Made by a program: the position numbers and the translations under genes. Of a stretch of 64,000 bases of DNA, positions 1-59,913 are shown in pieces (positions within the stretch are counted from its first letter, which is position 1; every line of letters begins with the position of its first letter). The stretch is from Nemertoderma westbladi (lineage: Eukaryota; Animalia; Xenacoelomorpha): the NCBI GenBank assembly GCA_032718475.1, contig JAUCBJ010001356.1, positions 1 through 64,000 on the forward strand, given 5' to 3'. The notes beneath the pieces are model-generated. The model searched no databases, was not told the DNA's origin, and saw only the letters and a program-made list of their open reading frames with translations.

Positions 1-46
1 CTTAGGAAGGACTCACCTACACAGATAAGTGTATTCTATAACACAA

Positions 47-470
47 ACCAATCCTACAACTAAACACTTACATCTGTGTCCTCTAGAGAACCAATCCTAC
101 AACTAAACACTTACATCTGTGTCCTCTAGAGAACCAATCCTACAACTAAACACTTACATCTGTGTCCTCTAGAGAACCAATCCTACAACTAAACACTTAC
201 ATCTGTGTCCTCTAGATAACCAATCCTACAACTAAACACTTACATCTGTGTCCTCTAGAGAACCAATCCTACAACTAAACACTTACATCTGTGTCCTCTA
301 GAGAACCAATCCTACAACTAAACACTTACATCTGTGTCCTCTAGAGAACCAATCCTACAACTAAACACTTACATCTGTGTCCTCTAGAGAACCAATCCTA
401 TAACTAAACACTTACATCTGTGCCCTCTAGAGAACCAATCCTACAACTAAACACTTACATCTGTGTCCTC
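47..470. repeat. 43-bp minisatellite (~10 copies) spanning the donor of exon 459-642
   Basis: Unit ACCAATCCTACAACTAAACACTTACATCTGTGTCCTCTAGAGA. Confidence 0.95.
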
Positions 471-642
471 AATAACCAGGTCTGGTAAAGGAAACGCTCT
501 TTTCCGGGCACTGCCTCCGCTGCTGCTGCGGTGCAGTGCTCCCGGTGCCGATTGGATGTGCAGCGGTGGTGTCTGGCGATCTGGAGGGATATCCTGTTTT
601 AGGGCCTCCTCAATCAAAGTTCCAAGAATCCAGATAATGAAC
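459..642 (-). CDS. RyR: RyR exon ([16 protein letters not shown]...VIEDTD)
   Basis: tag acceptor, GTAAGT donor, phase-compatible with the exon at 984-1163. Confidence 0.75.
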
Positions 643-3600
643 CTACATATGATGTAATGTAATTGTTTTTTCTATGTTAACCATAGGAACTATAAACGAT
701 ACACCATAACCTACATCCACGCAATATAGTACAAACTATTTACAAGCCTAACTTTTGTTAATTATATTAATTATTTATTTTATTATTTATTTTGTCTTTC
801 TAAACTAGCACTAGGACTACAGTTGTGCCATGACAGGACATGGCTGGGCTGGAAAATGAAATTAATTACAAATAAAGAATTCTAATAAGTCGTACAAAGT
901 TTCCCGTCGTATAAAGCTCTATACATCCCGTTCTACTTAACGGAATACAATAATATTTCCATTTTCGAATAAAGGTAACTTACAATCCCACATAGTATAA
1001 TACAGAGAACATCTGAGATAAGAACCACAGAATTATCTTGATGGTGACGTAGGCGATTCCGATAGGACTAATCCAGAAGAGCGTAGAGAGGCAGAATAAT
1101 GACATAAACAAATGCCATAAATAGCGGGCCGACAAGCATTGTTTAAATCTAGTCAGAAGGGGTCTGCGAAATAAAGGAGAAAAATTGTTGCTAAATTAAA
1201 CAACAAATTATAATGAAACGATACCAATTATTTTAATAAGACTACCGGTACTGTTTAAATGAAATAAGATTTTTCGATATTTCGGGAACGAGATTTTCAT
1301 TTCTCATACAAAAATATTCTTAAAGATTTCAGTATGCTAATATGTTTTTATTAGAAACATAATATTTGAAAATTATATTTATACTCTACAGATACTGGCG
1401 TACAGAGTACATTGACCGCAAGTGAAATAATGTATAGTTTATTGTTTTGGTTTATGGTTAATGTTTTTAATTTAATTTAATAAATTTTTCAAACCCACTA
1501 AAATTTATTTTGTTTATGCGGTCAATTTGCGCCTTTAAGGATATAAAGTATAATCACTTTATTATAAATAAACCACTGTAATATATATATATAATAATAA
1601 TTTGTAGAGACCAGAATTCAGTTTTCCACAGCAATGCAGTACTACACCACTACAGCAAATAAGTAAACAATGAGAATTTTGGATAGACTAAATGAAGAAC
1701 ACAATTCTCATTGAAATTCGTCCTTCTTCTTTAGAAACGATATAGGATTTAATGGTGATAATATTTCATTATGAGCTCTACGTGGTATTAAACTCACGTA
1801 GGCGGTGGATCCTCTCCCAAATCTCGTCTGACTTTCTCGAGTTTGGCGTCTTCGTCTTCCTCGGTTAGTCCAGCCGCGTGTTGCATCTCGAATATCGTGT
1901 CCTCGCAGAAATCCACGAAGGTTCCTAGACGCTCTGTATCGCCGCCTTCGTTGACGCAACTAAACAAAAACTGGCGTTTGGAATCCTGAAAAAATATTAA
2001 TGATGAAAAATAATGACACAGAGGGTGCAGTGCAGTGTAGAGGAGATGGAGTAGTTATCTTATTCGATAGAGATGTGCGATTTATAGAGAAAGGAAGCGA
2101 TCTAATCTTGGATAAGACAAATATAATATATACATAATAACATTACAAAAAAATAATAATATAATATATAAATTAAATAATAACATAATGATAATAATTT
2201 ATAATAATGAAAATAATGATAATAAATTAATAATAATGATAATAATTAATAATAATGATAATAATTAATAATAATGATAAAAAGTAATAATAATGATAAT
2301 AATTAATAATAATGATAAAAAGTAATAATAATGATAATAATTAATAATAATGATAATAATTAATAATAATGATAATAATTAATAATAATGATAATAATTA
2401 ATAATAATGATAATAATTAATAATAATGATAAATAAAATCAATAATATATTAATAATATTATAATTACATATAATAGTAATTGAGTTACTGAGTTAGTTA
2501 TTTGGTGATTGCCGATTTAATAGGAGTTGGGGAGGTCTGTACCACGTAGGCCAGCGCCGTCCCCGAAACCTAAGGCTCACCAAGGTCTTCGGCCACCGCG
2601 CAGGCATAGCGAGTTGGAGCGTAGCAGCCCGAACTGGAGTCGTCTCCGAACTCCACCCATCACCAATGCAAAGCCACGGGAAGGCATCCCATCCCGTCTG
2701 GCCACAAGTGTCTCAGCTAGGTGCCGAATAAAAATCTCGGCCTCCTTGCACCAGACACCATCCGTTGTGCCAACAAGGGGAGTAAAATAAATCCTCCTCT
2801 CCTCACAGACTGCACTGTAATGCGTCTTCTTGGCGCGTACCCGTTGTTCTAGAACGGAGTCAATGGACCTGTTGGTATAAGAGGGGGCGTCGGCCTTTAC
2901 AATCGCGATATCAAAAGACGCCACCCTCTGATTGGCCCAGACTCCACGCGCCAAAAGATCGGCCCTCACTCCTCCGACGTCCCACCCACATCCGTCCAGA
3001 TAACCGGTGGAGAGGGTCACTTCACGTTGGACGCAAGATCCACCGAGAGCAGAAGAGATAAGGTCACCATACACCTCGCGCAATTCGTCGTGCCTTTATT
3101 ATAAGGCCCCCGTGTTTACAGTTGAGGGCGTGGGTGGGTGTAAATGGAGCTCCACATCCCTCGCAGTTCGACGGGAGGCCTGGCGGCGTTAAGTCATACC
3201 GCAGCGCAAGATTGTCCCTGAAGGCGTCAGGATCTAAGTCGGTGTGGTCGGCTGGAGAGGGCTGAGCGGTCAGCCAACCACCAGTTTTGTACTTAACTGT
3301 CCGTTCCACCGTGCGGCGCCGATCGATGGGAATTTGTTGGAACGCCTCCACCTGCTTGATCTTGTAGACGGTGTCCTGTGCAATCCGACTTTCGGCGAGG
3401 GTGGAGGAGAGACACGCTGGAGGGGCAGGCCAGTGGTAAGGGCGTCCACAACTCCAATGGTACCATCCTTTGATGCAGCTCGAGCATGGGGTCGACGCAT
3501 TAGAGGGTCACGAATCCCAATTCCTCCATGGCGAACCGGGAGCATTGCCAGCTTGTCATCGGCCGCACTTAGCGGGGTTCCGAATAGTGCTGGGAAGTAA

Positions 3601-6600
3601 CTCTGGACAAGAGCAGAACGGATCGGGGATAAGTTTTCATCATTAGTGTCGACGACTCGGAGCAGGTAGTCCCACTCCGCTTGGACACATCTTGTCATTC
3701 CGAGGTGGGCTGTCTGCGGGAACTCTTTGGCCACTTCGGCCATTCGACTGATACTAGATACCCACCCCGATACCTTGCTCGCAACGAAGTCCTGGCGACC
3801 GTCGTTACCGCCCACTTAACCACCCAGGAAACGGCGACCTAAAACAATCTGGACCCCAGAAGCGCCAAACAACTCACGCGCCCTGTCGATACACTCGGGC
3901 TTCACGACCAGGAAACTCTTAGTGGGCTCTGGATTATAATGATAATCATTAATTATTTTTATTTAATTATAATAATAATCTAATATATAATATTAAAATA
4001 ATAGCATAATTTAATATTGATATCACGTGATATTTGGTACTCGTGAAAAGTGGTACTCGTCTTCCACGAGACCACAATGACACAAACTAGTTTTCCGTGG
4101 TGTCCTAAATGAATTATTGGGTGGATGCAAAGGGACGACGCTAGAATAGCAGTTCTTATACATGTGTATGTATAGCTGTTATAGCGTTATACAGTGGCGA
4201 CGGTTGCACAAGGATTTGTAATGATTAACAGATCGGATAGAATTAGGTGCGTTCAGACTGACGGCGCGAACCTAGCTTGACCCCCGTTCACACCGCGTTT
4301 CTTATGAATCTTTAGGGGTAATCCGAAATGATATGTTACACATTCGGTGTATTGTTATTGTTTTAGCATAATGTATCTATTAATCAATCTATCTCTAGCT
4401 TGACAGCTTCGCTATGCAAGTTCCCAGTGTATAGCGTCCAAAAATCATCCTAATAATAGCCCATTCACACTGCGTGAAGCTTGAAAGTCAGCTTGAAGCT
4501 ATCATGAAAGTTATCAAGGTTTCAAGATGTATCCATTCCGAACTAGTTTAGCGTCAAGGCAGTGTTAAGCTGTATCTAACCAAAACAATAAACGAATTAG
4601 TATATGTACAGGTTATAAGACAGAAATAAGCGCTATGAAACACTTAATAAAGATACATTAAAAAAAAAATAAAAAATCTCCATATATAAAATACCAATAA
4701 AAAGTCTAACGAAAAGGGAAATCCTGGTATTCTTCACATGGGCGCAAATTTTTTCACAAATCGTAATGAGATTGCATGAAATTTGAAACAGAGATAGTTT
4801 CACCTCCCGACCACTGACTGGGTGAGCCAGAATTTTATTTTTTGTGTTCAATCTTTAGCTACAAGGGTTTTAAAAAAAGTGTCTCCTGCGATATTACACC
4901 AATCCCACCGCAGTTATTCTTCTACCTTATAGTTGTTTGTTCGTACCAATAGAAAGCTGGCCACGCAAGGATTCCAAATATGTAAGGCCCCCCTCACACG
5001 GAGCAACTTGTTTCTGCAACTTGTTTCTGAAACTTGTTGCTGGACCCCCTCACACACAGAAACTTGTTGCTGCAACTTGTTTCCGAAACTTGTTTCTGTG
5101 TGTGAGGACTCCAGCAACAAGTTGCTGCAACTTGTTTCCGCAACTTATTTCTGTGTGTGAGGGGGTCCAGCAACAAGTTGCTGGAAGTTATATTCCCAGC
5201 AACTTTTTGAAAAACTTTTAATACATTCCATTTTGATACTAGCTAATATTAGATAATTTGAGTGATGTGATATTATATACAAATGACTGGACATGTTAGC
5301 TATTTATTTGGAAATAATTGTTATTTTCTTCAGCAACAAGTTTCTGTGTGTGAGGGGGGGCCAGCAACAAGTTGCTGAAACAAGTTTCGGAAACAAGTTG
5401 CAGAAACAAGTTGCAGCAACTTGTTTCTGTGTGTGAGGGGGTCCAGCAACAAGTTTCAGAAACAAGTTGCAGCAACTTGTTTCTGTGTGTGAGGGGGTCC
5501 AGCAACAAGTTGCAGAAACAAGTTGCTCCGTGTGAGGGGGGCCTTAGATACTTTAAATATTTTCTGAATTAACTAATGAAAGTGTAATCATAGAAATACA
5601 TGAAATCCATGTTCCAGAAATCTTAGAAAAGTTAACAACTGGAAAATTCAATTATCGATAATTTTACTTTAATTACTTACTTACTTACTTACTAATTAAT
5701 TAAATAATTAAATTCACAAATTATTTAATTTAAAGTGACAATGGCAACTTTGATCAGTGGATCCAGTCGTTCTTCTTCCAACTATTCCTATGTAACTGCT
5801 GTGGAAGAAATACAATTAGAAGAAGTTCAGCGGTCGACGGAAATACAGGAAAACCTGGAGGCAAACATTCCGTGCGAACCCCAACAGAACGATGTTGAAC
5901 AAACAAGCTGGTTGTGTAGACTGCTGGATACTGATGAGAAAATTGTTAAATTTGTATTCGGAATCCTGTCATCTTTCCTGGCATTTATTGTCACTGTAAT
6001 TTTATTAATGGTGCTGCTACAACCTGGGGCAGTCGAGTCGACCACCATTAGAAGTATAAATATAACAGAGGAAGTAAACACCACAGTGAGTGTCGCACCA
6101 ACGCCAACGGAATGTATAGCAAGTGAATCATCTAACACCACAGAACAAGCACTCACCACTAAAACACTTTCACTTAATAATACAACACACCAATCTACAA
6201 CTTCAACACACACACCTACTACAACTACAACACACCCACCACCTACTACAACTACAACACACCCACCACCTACTACAACTACAACACACCCACCACCTAC
6301 TACAACTACAACACACCCACCACCTACTACTACTAAACAAACACCTACCATTAAACCACCCCGACCCCGACGCACACCCTCACCCCGACACCGACCCCCA
6401 CTAAATTGCGGTACCGCCGGGTGCTATCCCTGAGAAATAAAATAAACGCCTTTAAAAAGAAACTGACCTGCCTGGACTCTGAAATCTTAATACAGTATCG
6501 ATATCGCTCCTCTGCTCTGCCATTAATTTCAATAGAAATAGACAGATTATAAAGAAGAATTTGGGAACAGTAGTCGTTGGTACAAACAGTCGGTTTAGAA

Positions 6601-9600
6601 ACAATACATTAGATAATAACACATATGGTCGAAGTGAACGGGTCGCAGTTCTCTACGGTAGACGCTGATCACGACGATTCGGACAATAGATCGTTGGCTG
6701 GCGAGCGGACCGGAGGTTGGTGGCATACGAAACTGTCTGAAACAAACCTCAACGGGAAACAATTCAATTGGGGCGAATACACATTAATTCAGCGGACTAA
6801 AATGATATTAAAACTCGAATGAAAATCCCAAACAATTCATATATAAGTAATCCTTAAGATTATGATAAATAATGTTGGTTAACGTAACTTTATGCGATTA
6901 AATCGTTAATATATTTCGCTTGTTATTTGTTTACTGTCGCTATAAATTTTGGAGATAGAGGGAACTTTGAACCCAATCAAAATTCATCCCTCTCCAGGGG
7001 AAAATCGACCCAACAAATTGCACACAAAAATAAAACTATCCTCTTCTATTGGCTTTAGTTTTTATTGTATAGGTTAGAATAACGTACCACTGTAACCTGC
7101 TCTTTTCCCTAAAGTGTCAATTTAACATTTAGACGAAATATCAATTCGCCGCGTGGCTGTTCCCAATGTTACATATTATCACCTTTATTTGTGGCTGTTG
7201 CCAGTGTTCCCTATTCTCACCTTTATTTGTGGATGTTCACCTTGTTCCTTATTCTCACCTTTATCTATGGCTGTTCCTATTGTTCAACATTATCACCTTT
7301 ATTTGTGGCTGTTCCTATTGCTCCACATACTCACCTTTATTTGTGGCTGTTCCCATTGTTCCATGTTCTTACCTTTATTCGTGGCTGTTCCTATTGTTCC
7401 ACATTATCACCTTTATTTGCGGCTGTTCCTATTGTTCCACATACTCACCTTTATTTGTGGCTGTTCCCATTGTTCCATGTTCTTACCTTTATTCGTGGCT
7501 GTTCCTATTGTTCCACATTATCACCTTTATTTGCGGCTGTTCCTATTGTTCCACATTCTCACCTTTATTTGCGGCTGTGCCCATTGTTCCATATTCTCAC
7601 CTTTATTCGTGGCTGTTCCTATTGTTCCACATTACCACCTTTATTTGTGGCTGTTCCTATTGTTCCACATACTCACCTTTATTTGTGGCTGTTCCCATTG
7701 TTCCATGTTCTTACCTTTATTCGTGGCTGTTCCTATTGCTCCACATTCTCCCTTTATTTGTGGCTGTTCCCATTGTTCCATATTATCACCTTTATTTGTG
7801 GCTGCTCCCATTGTTCCATATCATCACCTTTATTTGTGGCTGTTCCCCTTGTTCCATATTAATACCTTTATTTGTGGCTGTTGCCATTGTTCCATATAAT
7901 CACCTTTATTTGTGGCTGTTCCCATTGTTCCATATTATCACCTTTATTTGTGGGTGTTCCCATTGTTCCATATCATCACCTTTATTTGTGGCTGTTCCCC
8001 TTGTTCCATATTAATACATTTATTTGTGGCTGTTGCCATTGTTCCATATTCTCACCTTTATTCGTGGCTGTTCACCTTGTTCCTTATTCTCACCTTTATC
8101 TATGGCTGTTCCTATTGTTCCACATTACCACCTTTATTTGTGGCTGTTCCCATTGTTCCATGTTCTTACCTTTATTCGTGGCTGTTCCTATTGCTCCACA
8201 TTTTCCCTTTATTTGTGGCTGTTCCCATTGTTCCCTATTCTCACCTTTATTTGTGGATGTTCACCTTGTTCCTTATTCTCACCTTTATTCGTGGCTGTTC
8301 ACCTTGTTCCTTATTCTCACCTTTATCTATGGCTGTTCCTATTGTTCCACATTACCACCTTTATTTGTGGCTGTTCCCATTGTTCCATGTTCTTACCTTT
8401 ATTCGTGGCTGTTCCCATTGTTCCTTATTCTCACCTTTATCTATGGCTGTTCCTATTGTTCCACATTACCACCTTTATTTGTGGCTGTTCCCATTGTTCC
8501 ATGTTCTTACCTTTATTCGTGGCTGTTCCTATTGCTCCACATTCTCCCTTTATTTGTGGCTGTTCCCATTGTTCCCTATTCTCACCTTTATTTGTGGCTG
8601 TTGCCAGTGTTCCCTATTCTCACCTTTATTTGTGGCTGTTCCTATTGTTCCACATTACCACCTTTATTTGTGGCTGTTCCTATTGTTCCACATACTCACC
8701 TTTATTTGTGGCTGTTCCCATTGTTCCATGTTCTTACCTTTATTTGTGGCTGTTCCCATTGTTCCCTATTCTCACCTTTATTTGTGGCTGTTGCCATTGT
8801 TCCATATTCTCACCTTTATTCGTGGCTGTTCACCTTGTTCCTTATTCTCACCTTTATCTATGGCTGTTCCTATTGTTCCACATTACCACCTTTATTTGTG
8901 GCTGTTCCCATTGTTCCATGTTCTTACCTTTATTCGTGGCTGTTCCTATTGCTCCACATTCTCCCTTTATTTATGGCTGTTCCCATTGCTCCACATTCTC
9001 CCTTTATTTGTGGCTGTTCCCATTGTTCCCTATTCTCACCTTTATTTGTGGCTGTTGCCAGTGTTCCCTATTCTCACTTTTATTTGTGGCTGTTCCTATT
9101 GTTCCACATACTCACCTTTATTTGTGGCTGTTCCCATTGTTCCATGTTCTTACCTTTATTTGTGGATGTTCACCTTGTTCCTTATTCTCACCTTTATCTA
9201 TGGCTGTTCCTATTGTTCCACATTACCACCTTTATTTGTGGCTGTTCCTATTGTTCCACATTCTCCCTTTATTTGTGGCTGTTCCCATTGTTCCCTATTC
9301 TCACCTTTATTTGTGGATGTTCACCTTGTTCCTTATTCTCACCTTTATCTATGGCTGTTCCTATTGTTCCACATTACCACCTTTATTTGTGGCTGTTCCT
9401 ATTGTTCCACATACTCACCTTTATTTGTGGCTGTTCCCATTGTTCCATATTCTCACCTTTATTTGTGGCTGTTCCCATTGTTCCCTATTCTCACCTTTAT
9501 TTGTGGCTGTTGCCAGTGTTCCCTATTCTCACCTTTATTTGTGGATGTTCACCTTGTTCCTTATTCTCACCTTTATCTATGGCTGTTCCTATTGTTCCAC

Positions 9601-42157: not shown

Positions 42158-42194
<37 letters not shown>

Positions 42195-57100: not shown

Positions 57101-59913
57101 AGTAAATTAATATCGATGCAGTGCTTTACAACAGAACTGAAAGTAAATTAATATCGATGCAGTGCTTTACAACAGAACTGAAAGTAAATTAATATCGATG
57201 CAGTGCTTTACAACAGAACTGAAAGTAAATTAATATCGATGCAGTGCTTTACAATAGAACTGAAAGTAAATTAATATCGATGCAGTGCTTTACAACAGAA
57301 CTGAAAGTAAATTAATATCGATGCAGTGCTTTACAATAGAACTGAAAGTAAATTAATATCGATGCAGTGCTTTACAACAGAACTGAAAGTAAATTAATAT
57401 CGATGCAGTGCTTTACAACAGAACTGAAAGTAAATTAATATCGATGTAGTGCTTTACAACAGAACTGAAAGTAAATTAATATCGATGCAGTGCTTTACAA
57501 TAGAACTGAAAGTAAATTAATATCGATGCAGTGCTTTACAATAGAACTGAAAGTAAATTAATATCGATGCAGTGCTTTACAATAGAACTGAAAGTAAATT
57601 AATATCGATGCAGTGCTTTACAACAGAACTGAAAGTAAATTAATATCGATGCAGTGCTTTACAATAGAACTGAAAGTAAATTAATATCGATGCAGTGCTT
57701 TACAACAGAACTGAAAGTAAATTAAAATCGATGCAGTGCTTTACAATAGAACTGAAAGTAAATTAATATCGATGCAGTGCTTTACAACAGAACTGAAAGT
57801 AAATTAATATCGATGCAGTGCTTTACAATAGAACTGAAAGTAAATTAATATCGATGCAGTGCTTTACAACAGAACTGAAAGTAAATTAATATCGATTCAG
57901 TGCTTTACAACAGAACTGAAAGTAAATTAATATCGATGCAGTGCTTTACAATAGAACTGAAAGTAAATTAATATCGATGCAGTGCTTTACAACAGAACTG
58001 AAAGTAAATTTATTTCGATGCAGTGCTTTACAATCCTCCCACCTGAATTCAATAGAAACAGCGAGGACTTTGATACAGCTAACTGTAAGCTCTCCCGCCT
58101 CTTTGAACAATGGCGTGTGATCCCGTAACATTCTAGAAATCTTACAAAACAACCCCAGTAACATGTCCTTCTCCCTATAAGGTAAAATGCAACGAAATAT
58201 ATTGCTGCGTGTGTATATTAAACATTAACAATGCTACTGTACAACTTTAGCTACAACCCTAGCCTATCTAGACGAGAGCCGGTAACCATTGGATACAGTT
58301 GCTACTCACCTAGACGATGCCCATGAACCGAACGCCGTTGTTGCTGTGGCCATGAAGTAGGAGTTATATGTCTGGAAATACTTTACCATCAGAGGAACTA
58401 GAACATTGGAAAAGAAGTTCAAATCCTTTGTAGTTTTTTTGGTGAGATAATGAGTTGCTGTTTCTGAACCCACAGCCCCTAAATGAAAATGCAAACGTAA
58501 ACGAAGATAAAATTACCTGTTTGTGTATAAATAGTGTGAAAAACGTTTTGAATGTGTCAGGGATTATGTAATAATTAAACAATAAATTAATTACAACCTT
58601 TACAATACTCGAACACCAATAAAGCCATTTTTGAGTTCTTTAAATCGCCGATAATCCCATATACAGTAGGCCTCCACTATACAGTAGGCCTACACGATAC
58701 AGTAGGCCTACATATACAGTAGACCTACAATATACAGTTTAGGCCAACACTATACAGTAGTGCTACACTATACAGTAGTCCTAGACTATACAGTAGGCCT
58801 ACACTATACAGTAGACCAACACCATACAGTAGGCCTACACTATACAGCAGGCCTACACTATACAGTAGGCTTACACTATACAGTAGGCATACACTATACA
58901 GCAGGCCTACACTATACAGTAGGCCTAGACTATACAGTAGTCCTACAATAAAGTAGACCTACACTATACAGTAGGCCTACACTGTACAGTAGGCCTACAC
59001 TATACATCAGGCCTACACTATACAGTAGGCCTACACTATACTGTATGCCTACACTATACTGTATGCCTACACTATACAGTAGGCCTACACTATACAGTCG
59101 GCCTATACTATACAGTAGGCCTACACTATACAGTAGGCCTACACTATAGAGTAAGCCTACACTATGGGCATACTTTATACATTTTCACCCCGTATCTGAA
59201 TCTTTAACAAGACAACTATTGCTTTATATGTGTTGGGAAGATTTAGAAGATGTCCTCCTTACCCGACTTGTCCGATTTAGCAGTAAGACTGTCTCCGGCT
59301 TTCATCGCAAACCCAATAAGTTTCTCTAGAAGGAACAAAGCGAACCGGTGACCCCCAGTTCCTTCTCCCATCAGATTCATATTCAAACCAACAGCGGCTC
59401 TGCATAAATAAATATTCAAATAAAATTATTGAATAAATTTGTTTCACAATTAATTGATACGTGGTGTTTATTAACATTCGCAATTATCTTATCCCAACGT
59501 TCCAATGTAAATATTTCATACCCAGCGCCACCTTCTACGCATGGGTTAGGCAGTAGGCCTACTGTAGCTTAAAAAGTGATCTTGTGATATGATAGAAACC
59601 GGTGAGAATATGCATGGAGGTAGGTAGACATTGACATTCTTAAAAAGTCTGCTAAAAAACATTAAGATGAGTCGTGATGATGTTGCGTTTTAGTGCTGAC
59701 ACTGTTGTGTGGGCCGATATATTTATACGACTGTATTCCCATAAAAACAACCTAACAGACTTATTGAAATTAATTATTTGATACAAAATCTCCAATATTA
59801 TTGTAGTTGTACAGACTGAATTTTCTAACCAGTCTCCGGGCCCAGTCAGAAGGACTCAAATATCCATATTTATTTAAACAACCAACTTACCTCTGTAAAC
59901 TTGAACTGCTTAT
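459..59913 (-). CDS. RyR: Ryanodine receptor (partial; 27 exons, gene continues beyond both window ends)
   Basis: Hand-translated exons match RyR motifs ([82 protein letters not shown]). All have GT-AG boundaries with compatible phases. Exons: 59891-59913, 59263-59399, 58310-58478, 58043-58174, 56102-56231, 51599-51786, 51253-51374, 50539-50930, 27723-27851, 27408-27566, 27084-27201, 26141-26346, 25556-25738, 25150-25329, 20403-20536, 19250-19349, 18930-19109, 18381-18501, 17620-17879, 16887-17012, 15366-15498, 14930-15146, 12848-13009, 10747-10903, 1798-1985, 984-1163, 459-642. Confidence 0.95.
984..1163 (-). CDS. RyR: RyR exon (hydrophobic segment, PLLTRFKQC...YYVG)
   Basis: cag acceptor, GTAAGT donor, 180 nt, open frame, phases match neighbours. 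Confidence 0.75.
1798..1985 (-). CDS. RyR: RyR exon ([15 protein letters not shown]...[10 protein letters not shown])
   Basis: Matches RyR ESKRQFIFDVVNEGG...[10 protein letters not shown]; AG/GTGAGT boundaries. Confidence 0.92.
2125..2480. repeat. AT-rich (AAT/GAT) low-complexity tract at the 3' side of the CRE-like element
   Basis: Repeated TAATAATAATGATAATAAT. Confidence 0.85.
2500..3935 (-). mobile_element. 5'-truncated, frameshifted non-LTR retrotransposon with restriction-like endonuclease (CRE-like)
   Basis: ORF pieces 3270-3815, 3064-3351 (CxxC...HALNCKHGG zinc knuckle) and 2577-3083 ([10 protein letters not shown]...FDIAIV...KK..Y RLE motif); GC-rich island between AT-rich tracts. 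Confidence 0.8.
4575..4745 (+). repeat. Interspersed repeat copy (second copy at ~62845-63015)
   Basis: TAACCAAAACAATAAACGAATTAGTATATGTACAGGTTATAAGACAG... is near-identical at both loci. Confidence 0.85.
4986..5543. mobile_element. PIF/Harbinger-like MITE with internally repeated arms
   Basis: TIR GGCCCCCCTCACACGGAGCAACTTGTTTCTGCAACTTG and its reverse complement; flanked by TAA/TTA. Confidence 0.75.
5741..6433 (+). CDS. Nested antisense ORF: type II membrane-like protein with Thr/Pro-rich mucin stalk
   Basis: ATG at 5741; one hydrophobic segment ([23 protein letters not shown]); several N-x-T/S sequons; THPPPTTTT repeats; AATAAA right after the stop. Confidence 0.6.
   Translation: MATLISGSSRSSSNYSYVTAVEEIQLEEVQRSTEIQENLEANIPCEPQQNDVEQTSWLCRLLDTDEKIVKFVFGILSSFLAFIVTVILLMVLLQPGAVESTTIRSINITEEVNTTVSVAPTPTECIASESSNTTEQALTTKTLSLNNTTHQSTTSTHTPTTTTTHPPPTTTTTHPPPTTTTTHPPPTTTTTHPPPTTTKQTPTIKPPRPRRTPSPRHRPPLNCGTAGCYP
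6530..6822 (+). pseudogene. Fibrinogen C-terminal (FReD) domain remnant
   Basis: FSTVDADHD...GGWW...NLNG and a YKEEFG-like upstream piece; conserved cysteines are missing. Confidence 0.6.
7153..10785. repeat. 38-bp minisatellite (~95 copies, variant units) spanning the donor of exon 10747-10903
   Basis: Unit GTGGCTGTTCCCATTGTTCCATATTCTCACCTTTATTT. Confidence 0.95.
10747..10903 (-). CDS. RyR: RyR exon ([42 protein letters not shown])
   Basis: Highly conserved RyR motif; AG/GTGAGA boundaries. Confidence 0.93.
11140..11605. mobile_element. Foldback/MITE-like element with nested inverted repeats
   Basis: CCACCTATTGTTTACGTGGTAACCAATGACGGCGT is inverted at 11565-11600; internal palindromic arms at 11290-11475. 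Confidence 0.7.
11900..12560 (-). mobile_element. BEL/Pao LTR retrotransposon gag fragment (DUF1759-like)
   Basis: Minus frame [15 protein letters not shown]...[12 protein letters not shown]...[10 protein letters not shown]. Confidence 0.7.
12700..12872. repeat. 31-bp minisatellite (~5.5 copies) spanning the donor of exon 12848-13009
   Basis: Unit GTTATTGGACGTGTGTTCCCACCTACCTATC. Confidence 0.95.
12848..13009 (-). CDS. RyR: RyR exon (second EF-hand; [19 protein letters not shown])
   Basis: Conserved RyR motif; AG/GTAGGT boundaries. Confidence 0.93.
13035..14936. repeat. 33-bp minisatellite (~57 copies) spanning the donor of exon 14930-15146; fills almost the whole intron
   Basis: Unit CTTAGACGGTGTCTTAGGTTACTTACTCAGTGT. 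Confidence 0.95.
14930..15146 (-). CDS. RyR: RyR exon ([15 protein letters not shown]...first EF-hand)
   Basis: Lies within ORF 14926..15225; AG/GTAAGT boundaries. Confidence 0.93.
15366..15498 (-). CDS. RyR: RyR exon ([11 protein letters not shown]...MLLSLLEG)
   Basis: Conserved RyR motif; AG/GTAAAA boundaries. Confidence 0.92.
15471..16601. repeat. 42-bp minisatellite (~27 copies) spanning the acceptor of exon 15366-15498
   Basis: Unit GAGGGCAAATACGTGTAGGAATCCCGAAACCTAAGGCAAATA. Confidence 0.95.
16887..17012 (-). CDS. RyR: RyR exon ([29 protein letters not shown])
   Basis: Conserved RIH-associated motif. Confidence 0.93.
17620..17879 (-). CDS. RyR: RyR exon ([20 protein letters not shown]...[17 protein letters not shown])
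   Basis: Conserved RIH-associated domain motif. Confidence 0.94.
18381..18501 (-). CDS. RyR: RyR exon ([14 protein letters not shown]...FERCNKAE)
   Basis: RyR-like translation; GT-AG boundaries, phase 0/1. Confidence 0.9.
18930..19109 (-). CDS. RyR: RyR exon ([10 protein letters not shown]...[15 protein letters not shown])
   Basis: RyR-like translation; 180 nt, GT-AG. Confidence 0.9.
19250..19349 (-). CDS. RyR: RyR exon ([16 protein letters not shown]...TFE)
   Basis: RyR IMAKSC motif; GT-AG. Confidence 0.88.
19715..19760 (+). promoter_or_regulatory. tRNA-type Pol III internal promoter (A and B boxes)
   Basis: TGGCCTAGTGG at 19717-19727 and GGTTCGAATCC at 19748-19758. Confidence 0.65.
19763..19803 (+). 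ncRNA. Minimal type I hammerhead ribozyme
   Basis: ccacg CTGATGA gacc cagtaa ggtc GAAA cgcg TA cgtgg: complete core, stem I ccacg/cgtgg, stem II gacc/ggtc, palindromic CGCG stem III. Confidence 0.85.
20069..20240 (+). mobile_element. tRNA-derived SINE-like sequence
   Basis: A-box-like TGGCCTAGTGT and B-box-like GTTCGAGCCC; no complete cloverleaf. Confidence 0.45.
20403..20536 (-). CDS. RyR: RyR exon (...[14 protein letters not shown])
   Basis: Resembles RyR DPLHQLVLHFSR; GT-AG. Confidence 0.85.
20606..25166. repeat. 30-bp minisatellite (~152 copies) spanning the donor of exon 25150-25329; fills almost the whole intron
   Basis: Unit CCAACTTACCACAAGGGCCTCCACTAACGA, highly homogeneous. Confidence 0.97.
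25150..25329 (-). CDS. RyR: RyR exon (calmodulin-binding region [21 protein letters not shown])
   Basis: Matches RyR [24 protein letters not shown]; GT-AG. Confidence 0.92.
25556..25738 (-). CDS. RyR: RyR exon (divergent, ...[13 protein letters not shown])
   Basis: Open frame, 183 nt, phase 0/0, GT-AG. Confidence 0.75.
26141..26346 (-). CDS. RyR: RyR exon ([13 protein letters not shown]...)
   Basis: Resembles RyR SLIVATLKKMLPI; GT-AG. Confidence 0.85.
27084..27201 (-). CDS. RyR: RyR exon ([13 protein letters not shown])
   Basis: Resembles RyR NFKREEQNFVVQN; donor chosen by phase. Confidence 0.82.
27408..27566 (-). CDS. RyR: RyR exon ([19 protein letters not shown]...WNKSQ)
   Basis: Matches RyR RDLYALYPLLIRYVDNNR...WSKS. 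Confidence 0.92.
27723..27851 (-). CDS. RyR: RyR exon ([10 protein letters not shown]...)
   Basis: RyR SHFIP motif; 129 nt; first exon downstream of the Maverick-containing intron. Confidence 0.85.
27977..28260 (-). mobile_element. RTE-like LINE 3' fragment (related piece at ~63855-63930)
   Basis: [10 protein letters not shown]...LVFW...GG.P motif typical of RTE ORF C-termini. Confidence 0.6.
28459..28504 (-). ncRNA. Hammerhead ribozyme core (Penelope/retrozyme type), truncated at the cleavage site
   Basis: Minus strand agcgcta CTGACGA ggcc tgata ggcc GAAA tgcgcg TA; the 3' arm of stem I is absent. Confidence 0.65.
28620..29055 (+). repeat. Maverick left TIR
   Basis: Reverse complement of ~49985-50399 with a few indels. 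Confidence 0.92.
29323..29775 (+). CDS. Maverick hypothetical protein (150 aa)
   Basis: ATG-initiated ORF inside the TIRs; no recognised motif. Confidence 0.55.
   Translation: MSSNSDMVMPIVRHSFFAEDGEAYIVIDYTIYRRGDDKYKIEFSEKARKVLSSIDIDASDNSIHLLDYNLKVEHEGKLINILLLSMIEGIIVITQYNEAGEKFEIRLNRHSPYEIMSFFIVMISKESFVETELELESTDNVEYVDNIIDS
29963..30412 (+). CDS. Maverick RING-finger protein
   Basis: CPVC...C..KHATCVQC...CPICR (C3HC4-like). Confidence 0.75.
   Translation: MDILNEKCPVCYSKLLQHRDYYKCENKHATCVQCIVQYSEMNNYCSKICPICRAPISKFNIKLARYQPYYWKELRNITYISAESNDPGDLFTILENIFYRNVVRRCCYYIPYFFSSEHKKIISAKFSGSDFQTADVTYHYFAYKDAHHA
30636..31313 (+). CDS. Maverick DNA packaging ATPase (A32/FtsK-HerA-like)
   Basis: Walker A GPSGSGKS, Walker B LLIIDD, ITQN and KNPRD motifs. 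Confidence 0.92.
   Translation: MADFNSGPYNLNFQMGTSMIISGPSGSGKSTFVSNLIKHKNGCFNEAPLRVLYCYGSNPPTIPGITHLYKGLPENIDSLVNSRDLLIIDDLLTETESSTALTALFTKAAHHSNIFICFITQNMFYGGKHNHTRSINSHTLVLMKNPRDCYSVLNFAKQMLPGQTKFLVDSYQDATIEPFSHFLIDLRQETPEHLRFRSDIFRNHNCYIKNYIDYKRSENNNNNNK
31351..31734 (+). pseudogene. Maverick small basic core protein (adenovirus pX-like tail) with premature stop
   Basis: ATG at 31351, in-frame TAA at 31411, then [11 protein letters not shown]...QSGG|[10 protein letters not shown]. Confidence 0.7.
31959..33047 (+). CDS. Maverick retroviral-like (rve) integrase with C-terminal chromo-like tail
   Basis: [29 protein letters not shown] (DDE triad); EYLVRF..W tail. Confidence 0.95.
   Translation: MPRKMKPILSRSLDKKLLRIYLDPSSPAGFASIAKLAKAANIKPAQAQKWLSGQKTYSLHAPRRHHYPTSKIFTGGLKDIYMIDLVDMQQYKSQNNNYNYILTCIDAFSRLAFAYGMKTKKGIEIISILQKIFQKGKPNRIATDQGSEFLNKSVRKYLDTIGIQYYVMYSVNKAAIVERFNRTLKTKMFKIFTQRGNNVWIKILPKLIYAYNRSYHRTIQMTPIEVNKFNETELMNRLYGKYRQINHKKIKFKVGDTVRLSIARTAFAKGYREQWTRELFIIHRVRLDRVPAVMFDIKDSAGAIINGSFYSYELQKVHPNSNIYLPIDKNIGKLKERVRNGKKEYLVRFIGSKKQSWVQHIQ
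33311..34183 (+). CDS. Maverick minor capsid (penton-like) protein 1
   Basis: [20 protein letters not shown]; IYTDII...VGD..APLLR; LRD..GELINF. Confidence 0.8.
   Translation: MAVDTYITLLSDSSLNTYPNNNPSEFTVDLAEELYIGPNAKIGLAEIQYQATYSNITLQTQISLSIGVDAKDAKLYSLFPGMHSSIQVIIDDINKLFNSEAKYRDFEFIFNTNYSRIKFKFPKKLKKIQLSLRGDLIQILGLKPLLDQNHPSIPNWDIYSTTTVDELSNIEQPILILNYSGPKISEIGILDFPAPTNITRNKDTIFIYTDIIKSSFVGDALAPLLRTCPLTQLNRKYINHEYKSICYYRLLNKKLKTILITLRDGQGELINFNGGRTVITLKLIRGGGDG
34176..35021 (+). CDS. Maverick minor capsid (penton-like) protein 2
   Basis: FYVRLPSNS...FPRNT; YV.SNII...LLRRV; ITLHFKK; paralogous to the preceding ORF. Confidence 0.78.
   Translation: MDEFYVRLPSNSCPIDFPRNTGSNYQINFHGALPINPNENWVVGIKSIFYLATLPSMYNNVENVILLKKRKKNFEDTLPSGLFYSINDIIDYFNTGALKDKLQIVENTQQNRLQFISGKTVRELFIGQQLAYYFGITENNLGANLNPNFKIILKTKNNIKGYLIKVIGNEEKAYQMVFLCPQPPNSIPEPKSNMYVTSNIIENEYINDFGLALLRRVAIPDDVKYGSIINKEFVKDTIHYIPVKKSYKITYIHIEITDKEGKDLNFEYGTTSITLHFKKIN
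35023..35586 (+). CDS. Maverick basic core-like protein with QxGG/QxGxG protease-site-like motifs
   Basis: K/R-rich; QYGG, QHGEGIF; directly upstream of the major capsid gene. Confidence 0.65.
   Translation: MDSDLFQRYSKPQYGGADSNLAVFKGGRSTRGLTQVPVFRSGSYIDPYGQQIGAFGPNLKQRRFQRYRRGMLRTNQHGEGIFTDALSTLKKFGKPLAKKVLQKALPFTTKFMRQHVIPKGKRVLHQQSNTVINKALNKMKPSTRSVVEKVYRDLKQPTRPMSMNIHHRRSKNRKIKGKLKHCKKSIF
35589..36848 (+). CDS. Maverick major capsid protein (double jelly-roll); canonical start codon apparently lost
   Basis: ELDLF...IQT...YP; [12 protein letters not shown]...NPLKFEHFN; LRFAEPL; no ATG between the upstream in-frame stop and ELDLF. Confidence 0.88.
   Translation: MSIIKELDLFSTQPIQTEFKAKHYETIYPVSNLRSESREVTFLVPRSNEFYTKLQDALLITKCTVWWDRQLENSHIYMLNYPSGTMWSDIKIDLNEKQVENRNNHYFYKSYLSNLLFTTYESKNGLLGAGGFHQPLSEHGNEINPGAHPIGDAFSKQMQFVSGLTIDFDTETKIIQPGYDLRMHFRKVSNSFIFKITPNANAVTNLRLELDEVKILIPRMEVNPVIESSHLKGLESYDIEYQFQKKEVTTFTIPAQTTNYTQTNIFDGKKPKLVIIGFIRNNAYSGELISNPLKFEHFNLRRAELIVDGLPVGGVIYEPNFTDGTYIFEYTQLMKNINTYINGYGGNNIEHETYLGNCQLISWDLTADGYVRDPQPSIYTNSQLKLRFAEPLVETINVIVFNIYDHSLSLNSRKEIHID
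36851..40294 (+). pseudogene. Maverick adenain-like cysteine protease split after codon 4 by a 3-kb insertion
   Basis: ATG TTA TCT ACA (36851-36862) joins GAG GAC CTT... (39854 onward) to give [20 protein letters not shown]; catalytic GVHW and Q...CGLYC motifs. Confidence 0.85.
36863..39850. mobile_element. Non-autonomous element (HINE/Helentron-like features) with a second copy nested at 38167-39794
   Basis: Both copies start CGTTCGTGGGGCC, end GGCTCGCCCC and are flanked by ACA; (ACAGAACG)n microsatellite; shared ~420-bp block at 37744-38166 and 39319-39741. Confidence 0.8.
40326..40898 (+). CDS. Maverick protein with putative DEDD-like nuclease fold
   Basis: N-terminal IIFVDFQ...FKEFA; C..H...C tail. 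Confidence 0.5.
   Translation: MDNIIFVDFQYYTIDNKEYPVVFKEFAIFDSNYTKTNVKTFLIKGPPNIKLSALDKAHVNNLRDMTSHLPWDYGDISQDDFKKYMKRHLKYKKNIHVFGLMKQAILVSQLDVLAPNSMEKLGIYRLYYNYLTPCLPDQLTTTVEDKCSFHKDGDSCLNYCSAKRIGGYVTKRLTETDDKQKEITAVNDVQ
42235..42633 (-). CDS. Maverick hypothetical protein (132 aa)
   Basis: ATG-initiated ORF; no recognised motif. Confidence 0.45.
   Translation of the reverse strand: MTFAFFNNQAMRSSIKIDLESSETYLSSSNIAEMELRYINQKFEIGFTSVGNGVPLSPTKVEISKDFTLNIRIQPCTCSSENSENWENDADNTLRFDLPMQRPVEVRPINSNNHLQVPVMEETPLRDPHIGL
43314..43868 (-). CDS. Divergent TATA-binding protein (TBP)-like protein encoded by the Maverick
   Basis: Two TBP-type repeats: IVN...LNLKEL...[15 protein letters not shown] and [10 protein letters not shown]...[11 protein letters not shown]. 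Confidence 0.65.
   Translation of the reverse strand: MMNYQIVNKNISCKQIIYGLNLKELKNQLNGKIVLKPNQFIYKVFGATILMFTNGRITILGRKYNFNKVKKHIFEKTNINLIFKSINLCTYIFSIDTVIYRLLINNIGFYVIFDNVKLEISYEPEIFNNCKVRINNIVVVCCFYTGKCTLMCSPFKFHIYYPIFNKLVNNLLLFGARVFDVKYN
43845..48363 (-). pseudogene. Maverick protein-primed family B DNA polymerase (pPolB), disrupted
   Basis: [50 protein letters not shown] motifs; in-frame stops at 47095 (TGA) and 44860 (TAA); frameshift near 44550; MITE insertion. Confidence 0.93.
44029..44505. mobile_element. piggyBac-type MITE inserted in the pPolB 3' end
   Basis: TIR CCCTATCCATACCGGGG; TTAA TSD at 44025-44028 and 44506-44509. Confidence 0.9.
48564..49310 (-). CDS. Maverick hypothetical protein (248 aa)
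   Basis: ATG-initiated ORF upstream of pPolB. Confidence 0.6.
   Translation of the reverse strand: MALTQKTGATNSWKFTYNKYTCTAVHSKKYFIVESQEDNESICFSHQDTRYLLDILETTTNNQHQSRPAIIPGRIYPTLRFARGNLNISINPTSGDVYVQKQGKCKVLNKAFTEVLIQYRGKLLQFLSPPLEIISDQFYIELSNPEFIGFVTAFKGTNYVGLWKISLRYADSVGFNYYTGFNLSNQELTVLLREWDTQIDEPDKHLFDKNIIQLSDRLKMVKTNNKKIIITNTDNSTEVGAGVNLIIS
49380..49655. repeat. Imperfect long palindrome inside the Maverick
   Basis: TTCTCACTCTAAAATTGTG...GGTATCGATGAAAAAAC pairs with GTTTTTTCATCGATACC...CACAATTTCAGAGTGAGAA. Confidence 0.7.
49985..50399 (-). repeat. Maverick right TIR
   Basis: Inverted copy of 28620-29055. Confidence 0.92.
50539..50930 (-). CDS. RyR: RyR exon ([22 protein letters not shown]...)
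   Basis: Conserved RyR motif; GT-AG. Confidence 0.92.
51253..51374 (-). CDS. RyR: RyR exon ([21 protein letters not shown])
   Basis: Matches RyR [22 protein letters not shown]. Confidence 0.9.
51599..51786 (-). CDS. RyR: RyR exon ([12 protein letters not shown]...[17 protein letters not shown])
   Basis: Conserved RyR motif; GT-AG. Confidence 0.9.
52164..52226 (-). pseudogene. tRNA-like (Pro-TGG-like) pseudogene or SINE head
   Basis: A-box-like TGGCAAAGTTAGT, anticodon loop CT-TGG-AA, T-loop GAGTTCAATCCC; acceptor stem defective. Confidence 0.45.
52586..54871 (-). CDS. ERAL1: Mitochondrial Era-like GTPase, intronless, nested in an RyR intron
   Basis: G1 GKPNAGKS, G2 TTR, G3 DTPG, G4 NKVD, G5 VSA ([12 protein letters not shown]), C-terminal KH-like EMPY domain; basic N-terminus resembling a mitochondrial presequence. 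Confidence 0.88.
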   Translation of the reverse strand: MNRLFLFRNLCVSRLNPPTHYRKYCSSSLTNPNEILPTWSDLSDRRSVGDLVYPSKHPRESHPVPPTLAAATMQLIAVPHTPSGVHPGTRRFLRVAVIGKPNAGKSSLVNALMRRRLMATSRKVNTTRGNASAVVTQGNTQIVMVDTPGFVDWEYCRRFRWPREMHTAPREAVESADVVVVVVDAADRYTRRMIDPEVLYQLFGFPDKPCLLVLNKVDLLNKNTATVCLGLSTGLTGGFIGGRPFTDKAKALALEAKKHKALSGESVNAARHQLLLDLYEPKRKRSKLPSFKLLGDESGFNTPDSSHVDTESVSSCPTQTDDLTEAVGGVTNWVHPTRRKFMNSVGNSDSFKEAGGSAIVGYSESQGAATSGVPDWLAPVRIRDSLAESSNLSYRGIHPSRIHLIRSNYTETSAPHRTNTQTVTPKVTDTLTPQVNDTQTTNITDTQTHQVTDTQTPNITDRRTPNITDTQTVVSQVTNLQTVPTHVTDTQTLHVSDTQALAPHIPDTETVSLSLTPTASDPTTPCLDGSHHESVSAYQQFRQERIDKIATETGLSPEVVTEFNDSELRTLFNIEPPPPSDSVKLAQDLKEKQRQIRKKKDQEVKALKNKLAERGYWPRFKEVFMVSACSNDGTDALLDCLFDMSKKGAWEFNETVVTDQLPDAIIASCVQEQLLDLLPKEMPYMVQHKTEVIEELERGMSVVHYIICGKKHHLPYFYGENSSTFNRITENATQRMMDIFHMDIDLKILIKYDKNLKFKGS
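56102..56231 (-). CDS. RyR: RyR exon ([25 protein letters not shown])
   Basis: RyR-like translation; cag/GTGAGT boundaries. Confidence 0.85.
56215..58033. repeat. 39-bp then 41-bp minisatellite (~45 copies) spanning the acceptor of exon 56102-56231; fills the intron
   Basis: Units GTGCTTTACAATAGAACTGAAAGTAAATAAAACGGTATA and GTGCTTTACAACAGAACTGAAAGTAAATTAATATCGATGCA. Confidence 0.95.
58043..58174 (-). CDS. RyR: RyR exon ([12 protein letters not shown]...)
   Basis: Resembles RyR EKEMITSLFCKL. Confidence 0.88.
58310..58478 (-). CDS. RyR: RyR exon ([16 protein letters not shown]...)
   Basis: Resembles RyR IKFFAKILLPLINQYF. Confidence 0.87.
58660..59165. repeat. 18-bp minisatellite, mid-intron
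   Basis: Unit TAGGCCTACACTATACAG. Confidence 0.9.
59263..59399 (-). CDS. RyR: RyR exon ([12 protein letters not shown])
   Basis: Resembles RyR KRFAFGFLQQLL; GT-AG, phase-compatible. Confidence 0.78.
59891..59913 (-). CDS. RyR: Candidate 23-nt RyR microexon
   Basis: tttgcag|ATAAGCAGTTCAAGTTTACAGAG|gtaagt; ends in phase 2 as the next exon requires. Confidence 0.55.

What the first reader, a model, noticed from the sequence alone, without database searches (positions are those of the whole stretch)
47..58033. Splice-site-anchored minisatellites: 7 of 8 intronic arrays are tandem amplifications of RyR exon/intron junctions
Seen: seven arrays with unrelated sequences (43, 38, 31, 33, 42, 30 and 39/41 bp) each start inside an RyR exon, cross the real splice site and repeat into the intron. 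Five amplify a donor (GAGGACACAGAT|GTAAGT; CAAATAAAG|GTGAGA; AACGATAG|GTAGGT; ACACTGA|GTAAGT; GGCCCTTGTG|GTAAGT) and two amplify an acceptor (CCTTAG|GTTTC; CTTTCAG|TTCT). Three introns (13010-14929, 20537-25149, 56232-58042) consist almost entirely of such copies. Splice junctions are a tiny fraction of this 60-kb gene, so chance placement looks unlikely. Established: tandem duplication of AG|GT-containing sequence is a proposed route of intron gain, but these arrays copy existing junctions. Inference: a splicing- or transcription-linked mutational process (R-loops or breaks at junctions, or RNA-templated/rolling amplification) generates hundreds of decoy splice sites, and exon definition selects the exon-proximal copy.
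Basis: partly seen in the sequence, partly recalled or inferred. Interest (0 to 1): 0.88.

Follow-up and report, generated by a model that had tools for sequence, protein, structure and literature searches.

The report
Splice-junction "mirage" repeats in RyR gene
Seven exon edges of an animal ryanodine-receptor gene have been copied head to tail, splice signal included, into the neighbouring introns (about 380 extra signals); this is a dense example of a repeat type already known from lancelets and human genes, and the extra signals are likely ignored during splicing.

Summary
A 26-exon ryanodine receptor (RyR) model on the minus strand is stop-free and GT-AG throughout. Seven of its 52 splice junctions, five donors and two acceptors, are copied 4 to 151 extra times into the adjacent intron. 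The tally is 7 of 10 intronic minisatellites, not 7 of 8, but all seven with a unit of 30 bp or more are anchored. Uniform placement is rejected with today's intron sizes (P about 5e-5, transposons removed), not if introns were 100 bp or shorter when seeded. Four arrays collapse to introns of only 36-83 bp. Four host introns sit at positions shared with other eukaryotes, so this is not intron gain. No unit ends at the splice site, which argues against spliced-RNA templates. The class is known: lancelet 'mirages' and the human F7 and CBS repeats, where the exon-proximal site is used alone or mainly. This scan also found it before in other genomes. Likely mechanism: DNA-level tandem duplication, ordinary minisatellite turnover, short-intron geometry and selection. 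A junction-targeted mutator stays possible (about 25%). Site use was not tested by RNA.

The parts
459..59399 (-). Ryanodine receptor gene, 26 confident exons (central and C-terminal part; the gene continues beyond both ends of the model)
   Evidence: stop-free joined frame, all GT-AG, 46-47% identical to vertebrate RyR over 1,000-1,200 aa
56214..58034 (-). Acceptor array, 39-bp and 41-bp sub-arrays, 44 extra copies; unit 17-18 exon + 22-23 intron bases; real acceptor 56232/56231; intron collapses to about 45 bp; nearest decoys add 13 aa each in frame without a stop
   Evidence: intron position shared with 3 of 10 covering loci
20605..25166 (-). Donor array, 30 bp, 151 extra copies; unit 17 exon + 13 intron; real donor 25150/25149; intron collapses to 83 bp; decoys add 10 aa each in frame, frame open through the whole array
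   Evidence: position shared with 1 of 26 loci (variable region)
15471..16601 (-). Acceptor array, 42 bp, 26 extra copies; unit 28 exon + 14 intron; real acceptor 15499/15498; first decoy brings an in-frame stop
   Evidence: position shared with 0 of 45 loci
13035..14936 (-). Donor array, 33 bp, about 55 extra copies; unit 7 exon + 26 intron; real donor 14930/14929; intron collapses to 50 bp; first decoy brings a stop
   Evidence: position shared with 10 of 30 loci
12699..12872 (-). Donor array, 31 bp, 4 extra copies; unit 25 exon + 6 intron; real donor 12848/12847; first decoy brings a stop
   Evidence: position shared with 8 of 26 loci
7153..10782 (-). Donor array, 38 bp, 94 extra copies; unit about 36 exon + 2 intron (33 + 5 if the shared GAG is counted as intron); real donor 10747/10746; first decoy brings a stop
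   Evidence: position shared with 7 of 23 loci
46..470 (-). Donor array, 43 bp, 9 extra copies; unit 12 exon + 31 intron; real donor 459/458 (exon in a poorly conserved region, downstream acceptor not fixed); first decoy brings a stop
58660..59165 (.). 18-bp intronic minisatellite, not anchored on a junction (counter-example)
2119..2481 (.).
6185..6348 (.).

Best explanation
Seven 30-43-bp segments that straddle real RyR splice junctions are repeated head to tail into the adjacent introns; they likely arose as DNA-level tandem duplications, likely grew by ordinary minisatellite turnover, and are likely tolerated because the exon-proximal splice site is predicted to be the one used. Shown: the anatomy, the age of four host introns, and variant-block structure in the arrays. 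Inferred step 1: seeding by slippage or template-switching repair of a break near the junction, sometimes with loss of intron sequence. Inferred step 2: expansion by unequal exchange and conversion. Inferred step 3: the excess at junctions comes mostly from a filter. Duplications wholly inside an exon are purged, and in a short intron most surviving 30-43-bp duplications must cross a junction. This is the 'mirage' class.
For: The junction lies anywhere in the unit (exon share 0.21-0.95, not different from uniform, P=0.85, n=7) and never at its edge. Joins show microhomology or short internal repeats (2-nt overlap in the 30-mer, a 9-nt and an 8-nt internal repeat in the 33- and 42-mers, a palindrome in the 43-mer). 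Variants recur in blocks and the 39/41 array has two homogeneous halves. 4 of 7 host introns collapse to 36-83 bp against 0 of 19 array-free introns under 135 bp (Fisher P=0.002; the 36 assumes an acceptor). The GT/AG columns carry 5 variant alleles against 5.6 expected from other columns, so no sign of selection for or against decoys. Human F7 uses only the most upstream of identical donors (PMC1557585), and lancelet mirages reportedly do not disturb splicing (PMC3087553, PMC3902484).
Against: With present-day intron sizes uniform placement is still rejected: P(7 or more of 10)=4.9e-5 with transposons removed, 1.7e-3 with introns capped at 300 bp, 0.026 at 150 bp. Three arrays sit in introns that do not collapse to tiny sizes (about 177, 290 and 985 bp). 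The tiny residues may be a result, not a cause: three arrays end in a partial exon-derived copy against unique sequence, which shows that intron sequence was lost. Only 1 of 382 junctions in RyR-like introns of other organisms had a self-copy although their median intron is 146 bp, so short introns alone do not produce arrays; those contigs may however break at repeats.
Confidence: 0.57

Rival explanations
1. A junction-targeted mutator: transcription or splicing makes DNA near exon edges break or slip more often (R-loops, paused polymerase, nucleosome edges), and repair synthesis repeats the junction.
For: 7 of 52 junctions affected against 1 of 382 in other organisms' RyR-like introns. Enrichment survives removal of transposons (P=4.9e-5) and a 300-bp cap (P=1.7e-3). 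All seven arrays with units of 30 bp or more are anchored. The origin of mirages is called unclear in PMC3087553.
Against: The window was chosen because it shows the pattern, so its P values are optimistic. Enrichment vanishes for introns of 100 bp or less (P=0.10). No unit boundary coincides with a splice site, which excludes simple spliced-mRNA or lariat templates. No R-loop, expression or break data were available.
Confidence: 0.25
2. The arrays are kept by selection: they lengthen introns that are too short for this species' spliceosome, or give regulated isoforms (in-frame ladders of 10 or 13 aa, or stop-containing transcripts sent to decay).
For: All four introns that collapse below 100 bp carry arrays, and no array-free intron is under 135 bp. 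Two arrays give stop-free in-frame inserts, and the RyR frame is open through the whole 30-mer array.
Against: Decoy GT/AG vary as much as other columns. Five of seven first decoys bring a stop. Arrays of 1.8-4.5 kb far exceed what lengthening would need. A unit divisible by three without a stop stays open by construction.
Confidence: 0.12
3. The introns were created by tandem duplication of exon sequence holding AG|GT (intron gain).
For: The intron before 15498 is shared with 0 of 45 loci and the one after 25150 with 1 of 26. The exon before the 39/41 array ends in the same five bases as its acceptor.
Against: Four of seven positions are shared exactly with 3-10 other loci. Every unit holds 2-31 bases that are not in the exon, and the introns keep a unique far end.
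Confidence: 0.03
4. The arrays are assembly artefacts.
For: No single contig bridged an array by 31 or more letters on both sides, and copy numbers were not checked on long reads.
Against: In runs of two studies, contig depth at the edges of the 38-mer and 33-mer arrays is 10 to over 100 times that of the adjacent exon bins (2248 against 58, 908 against 7; 746 against 15-62, 527 against 30-40; not a copy number, and one study could be the window's source). Zero-mismatch contigs reach 21 and 30 bases into these arrays. Copies carry interleaved variants and two distinct sub-arrays.
Confidence: 0.03

Closest known systems
Amphioxus 'mirage' minisatellites (Adh3, globins BflGb6 and BflGb9, troponin C, PGBD5). 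Seen: passages of PMC3087553 and PMC3902484; the original Adh paper was not held.
   Same: [quoted passage not shown]
   Different: Higher copy numbers (up to 152 against 3-7 in the globin and PGBD5 passages), seven arrays in one gene, three introns 98.5% or more array, and probably a different animal group (long branch). Length instability and normal splicing were shown there and not tested here.
Human junction-spanning VNTRs: F7 intron 7 (37 bp), CBS intron 13, 6-16 intron 2, LMNB2, PDGF intron 4. Seen: abstract, outline and 12 passages of PMC1557585.
   Same: First unit spans the exon-intron boundary, so the exact donor is repeated downstream; similar unit length.
   Different: One array per gene and 5-25 copies; all listed cases are donors. 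F7, LMNB2 and PDGF use only the first site, CBS and 6-16 also use the next two. Use here is untested.
Intron gain or gene-structure change by tandem duplication (human internal tandem repeats). Seen: outline and first half of Results of PMC2812944; the AG/GT model as cited in PMC3087553.
   Same: Minisatellites of about 30 bp at exon-intron boundaries that lengthen introns.
   Different: Here at least four host introns predate the arrays, and units contain true intron sequence.

Membership tests
Mirage / junction-spanning minisatellite | Head-to-tail repeat whose unit spans a real exon-intron boundary | tested here: met
   7 of 52 junctions; junctions defined by homology, reading frame and, for four, shared position, not by RNA
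Mirage / junction-spanning minisatellite | Minisatellite-sized unit, terminal copy overlapping the authentic exon, the rest in the intron | tested here: met
   units 30-43 bp with 7-36 exon bases
Mirage / junction-spanning minisatellite | Many copies keep GT or AG | tested here: met
   362 of 383 extra copies
Mirage / junction-spanning minisatellite | Tandem-repeat turnover (homogenised clusters, variant blocks) | tested here: met
   mean identity to consensus 92-100%, repeated variant blocks, two sub-arrays
Mirage / junction-spanning minisatellite | Copy-number variation between alleles or cells | not testable with these tools
   only short-read contigs were laid; they cannot span the arrays
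Mirage / junction-spanning minisatellite | Normal mRNA made from the authentic site | not testable with these tools
   no transcript data were in hand; predicted from frame and homology only
Intron gain by tandem genomic duplication | Intron position absent from other lineages | tested here: not met
   shared in 3 of 10, 10 of 30, 8 of 26 and 7 of 23 loci for four introns; 1 of 26 and 0 of 45 for two; one not covered
Intron gain by tandem genomic duplication | Intron made wholly of duplicated exon sequence | tested here: not met
   every unit has non-exon bases and every intron a unique far end
Spliced-RNA- or lariat-templated insertion | A unit boundary exactly at the splice site | tested here: not met
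   0 of 7; nearest are 2-5 and 6 bases into the intron

The most novel reading that the evidence does not exclude
This animal has a junction-targeted mutator: transcription- or splicing-coupled breaks near exon edges are repaired by repeated template switching that replaces the intron body with copies of the junction, hitting about one splice site in seven. Two arrays would then also give RyR a ladder of in-frame isoforms (n x 10 aa, n x 13 aa). The genome would be the first place where the unexplained origin of mirages could be tested on thousands of events.
Probability: 0.22. Interest if true: 0.68.

Novelty: new member of a known kind. Interest (0 to 1): 0.32.

Why it matters
As a class this is known. 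Its value is as material: one essential gene with about 380 extra splice signals, 140 of them identical to the real donor motif in a single intron, is a strong natural test of how an invertebrate spliceosome chooses among identical donors and acceptors. How mirages arise was called unclear in 2010 (PMC3087553), and my eight searches listed no genome-wide test of their enrichment, so a species with this density would make that question testable. It also warns annotators: the 30-mer array reads as a 1,595-codon open frame in phase with RyR.

Tried and rejected
No whole genome is held for this window, so the genome-wide permutation test could not be run. No RNA holder listed; this says nothing on expression or site use. 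In one search the bin inside the 31-bp array had no cover in any of four runs, so that array was not checked by reads; two of the four runs hold almost none of the gene. Read depth was obtained for one intron only; the repeat content of the other introns was estimated from in-window similarity and ORFs, so the transposon-stripped lengths are rough. A search for decayed junction copies at the 45 other junctions found none convincing: best P=0.02 and 0.05 of 52 tests (the test also missed the 33-mer array, whose exon part is only 7 bases). A 23-bp candidate first exon (59913-59891) was dropped before all counts because its frame is doubtful. The nested Era-like ORF gave no useful lineage signal. 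The RyR tree (28 rows: the window plus 27 of 120 homologues, one more dropped for short overlap) gave a long branch outside the protostome rows and no firm placement. The original amphioxus Adh paper and the 6-16 paper were not held. No supplements were read; those of PMC3087553 and PMC3902484 show mirage alignments and could refine the comparison of copy numbers. Rejected: intron gain as the general origin, spliced-RNA templating, assembly artefact. 'Extra copies always lie on the intron side' was not used as evidence, since it follows from the definition once the exon-proximal site is taken as real.

Full report
Gene model. The window holds part of a ryanodine receptor gene on the minus strand. 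One exon matches RyR proteins at up to 68% identity and solved RyR2 structures at E about 1e-32. Using tblastn and three-frame reading I defined 27 exons that join into a stop-free frame of 1,470 codons with GT-AG at every intron, 46-47% identical to vertebrate RyR over 1,000-1,200 residues. The first, 23-bp exon is doubtful and was dropped, leaving 26 exons and 52 junctions. The junctions rest on homology and frame, not on RNA. A tree places the protein on a long branch outside the protostome rows without a firm position, so the animal group is undetermined.

Observation. Tandem Repeats Finder lists all seven arrays. A scan of the 52 junctions for copies of the 14 bases across the junction found them at exactly seven, at a lag equal to the period: acceptors at 56231 and 15498, donors at 25150, 14930, 12848, 10747 and 459. 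They hold 44, 26, 151, 55, 4, 94 and 9 extra copies, 383 in all, of which 362 keep GT or AG. Three introns are 98.5-99.6% array.

Reality of the arrays. Short-read contigs from two studies show depth at the edges of the 38-mer and 33-mer arrays 10 to over 100 times that of the neighbouring exon bins, and zero-mismatch contigs run 21 and 30 bases into them. That is short of a bridge, is no copy number, and one study could be the source of the window. Interleaved variants, repeated blocks and two distinct sub-arrays of 39 and 41 bp are what real minisatellites look like. An artefact is unlikely.

Is it more than chance? I placed units uniformly over collapsed introns, leaving out wholly exonic placements. 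P(7 or more of 10) is 7.6e-9 with all intron DNA, 4.9e-5 without transposons and the nested gene, 1.7e-3 with introns capped at 300 bp, 0.026 at 150 bp, 0.10 if all were 100 bp and 0.34 at 70 bp. The window was picked for this pattern, so these values are optimistic, and the transposon boundaries are rough. The result therefore depends on how long the introns were when the arrays began. Removing the extra copies leaves 45, 83, 50 and about 36 bp in four introns, while the 19 array-free introns are all 135 bp or longer (Fisher P=0.002; the 36 assumes an acceptor at position 36). This can mean that short introns came first. It can also mean that intron sequence was lost after or during array formation: three arrays end in a partial exon-derived copy of 13 to about 25 bases against unique sequence, which a single clean duplication cannot leave. 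As a control, 1 of 382 junctions in 191 distinct RyR-like introns from 62 of 79 fetched loci had a self-copy (median intron 146 bp). Those contigs may break at repeats, so the contrast is an upper bound, but it suggests that this species is unusually prone to such arrays.

Age of the introns. Four host introns lie at exactly the same codon and phase as introns in other loci (3 of 10, 10 of 30, 8 of 26, 7 of 23); one matches 1 of 26, one 0 of 45, one is not covered. The loci are unnamed, partly redundant and may include distant paralogues, but exact matches show that these four introns predate the arrays. Intron gain is not the general origin.

Anatomy and seeding. Units hold 7 to 36 exon bases; the junction falls anywhere in the unit (P=0.85 against uniform, n=7, low power) and never at its edge. 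A spliced-mRNA or lariat template would put a boundary at the splice site, so a DNA-level or pre-mRNA-colinear event fits better. The joins show a 2-base overlap (30-mer), a 9-base internal repeat (33-mer), an 8-base internal repeat (42-mer) and an 8-base palindrome (43-mer). Reading these as marks of slippage or template-switching repair is inference from recalled knowledge. In the 42-mer array the consensus differs from the exon at two synonymous positions while the copy next to the exon matches it over 28 bases, which hints that arrays are re-seeded from the exon edge.

Effect on splicing. In five arrays the first decoy brings an in-frame stop; in the 30-mer and the 39-mer it adds 10 or 13 residues without a stop, and the RyR frame is open through the whole 30-mer array. 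By a matrix built from this gene's own sites, 141 of 151 copies in that array score as well as the real donor, while no copy in the 42-mer array reaches the real acceptor. Variant alleles at GT/AG columns number 5 against 5.6 expected, so selection on the decoys is not visible. Which copy is used remains untested. Human F7 uses only the most upstream of identical donors and moves to the next when it is mutated, while CBS and 6-16 also use the next two (PMC1557585, abstract and passages).

Comparison with what is known. Tandem repeats spanning exon-intron boundaries, at donors and acceptors, are described in lancelets as 'mirages', with normal splicing, length instability and an unclear origin (PMC3087553 passages; PMC3902484 passages). 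The four sequence features I could test are met; copy-number variation and normal mRNA could not be tested. Human repeats at exon-intron boundaries are also catalogued in PMC2812944 (first half of Results). Earlier notes of this scan report the same class in at least ten other genomes, one with seven arrays in one gene and one invoking short introns; these are unchecked leads, not support.

Verdict. A real, dense, new member of a known kind. Most likely: DNA-level duplication, minisatellite turnover, and a filter of short introns plus selection (0.57). A junction-targeted mutator is not excluded (0.25), adaptive retention is less likely (0.12). Interest 0.32.

Noticed in passing
window 28620-50399: A 22-kb element with terminal inverted repeats (about 440 bp, 86% alike) fills one RyR intron. 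Its ORFs include an integrase core (31929-33047), an adenovirus-type protease (39752-40294) and a weak A32-like ATPase (30636-31313): Polinton/Maverick-like. A 434-bp direct repeat (37737-38170, 39312-39745, 98%) lies inside it.
   Followed up: partly
window 52589-54871, minus strand: An intronless 760-codon Era-like GTPase ORF (MMR_HSR1 E=3e-20; best eukaryotic hit mitochondrial Era, 45%) is nested in a RyR intron on the same strand, with a long low-complexity insert holding a 24-bp coding repeat. Possibly a retrogene.
   Followed up: partly
window 10926-11767: Nested very high-copy elements with inverted repeats (contig depth 1e4 to 5e5), likely MITE families.
   Followed up: no
window 11820-12620, minus strand: Fragment with DUF1759 (E=8e-17), multi-copy; likely an LTR retrotransposon gag piece (family link recalled).
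   Followed up: partly
window 2500-3940, minus strand: GC-rich, frame-broken ORF pieces that look like the end of a non-LTR retrotransposon; no Pfam match at E 0.01.
   Followed up: partly
window 43314-43916, minus strand: A 200-codon ORF inside the large element with a TATA-binding-protein match (E=7e-6, 34 residues).
   Followed up: no
window 17-35, minus strand: A possible 19-base micro-exon between AG and GTGAGT just after the 43-bp array; cannot be confirmed because the window ends.
   Followed up: no
L063 near 1982: One donor in another organism's RyR-like intron has a single self-copy 50 bases downstream.
   Followed up: no
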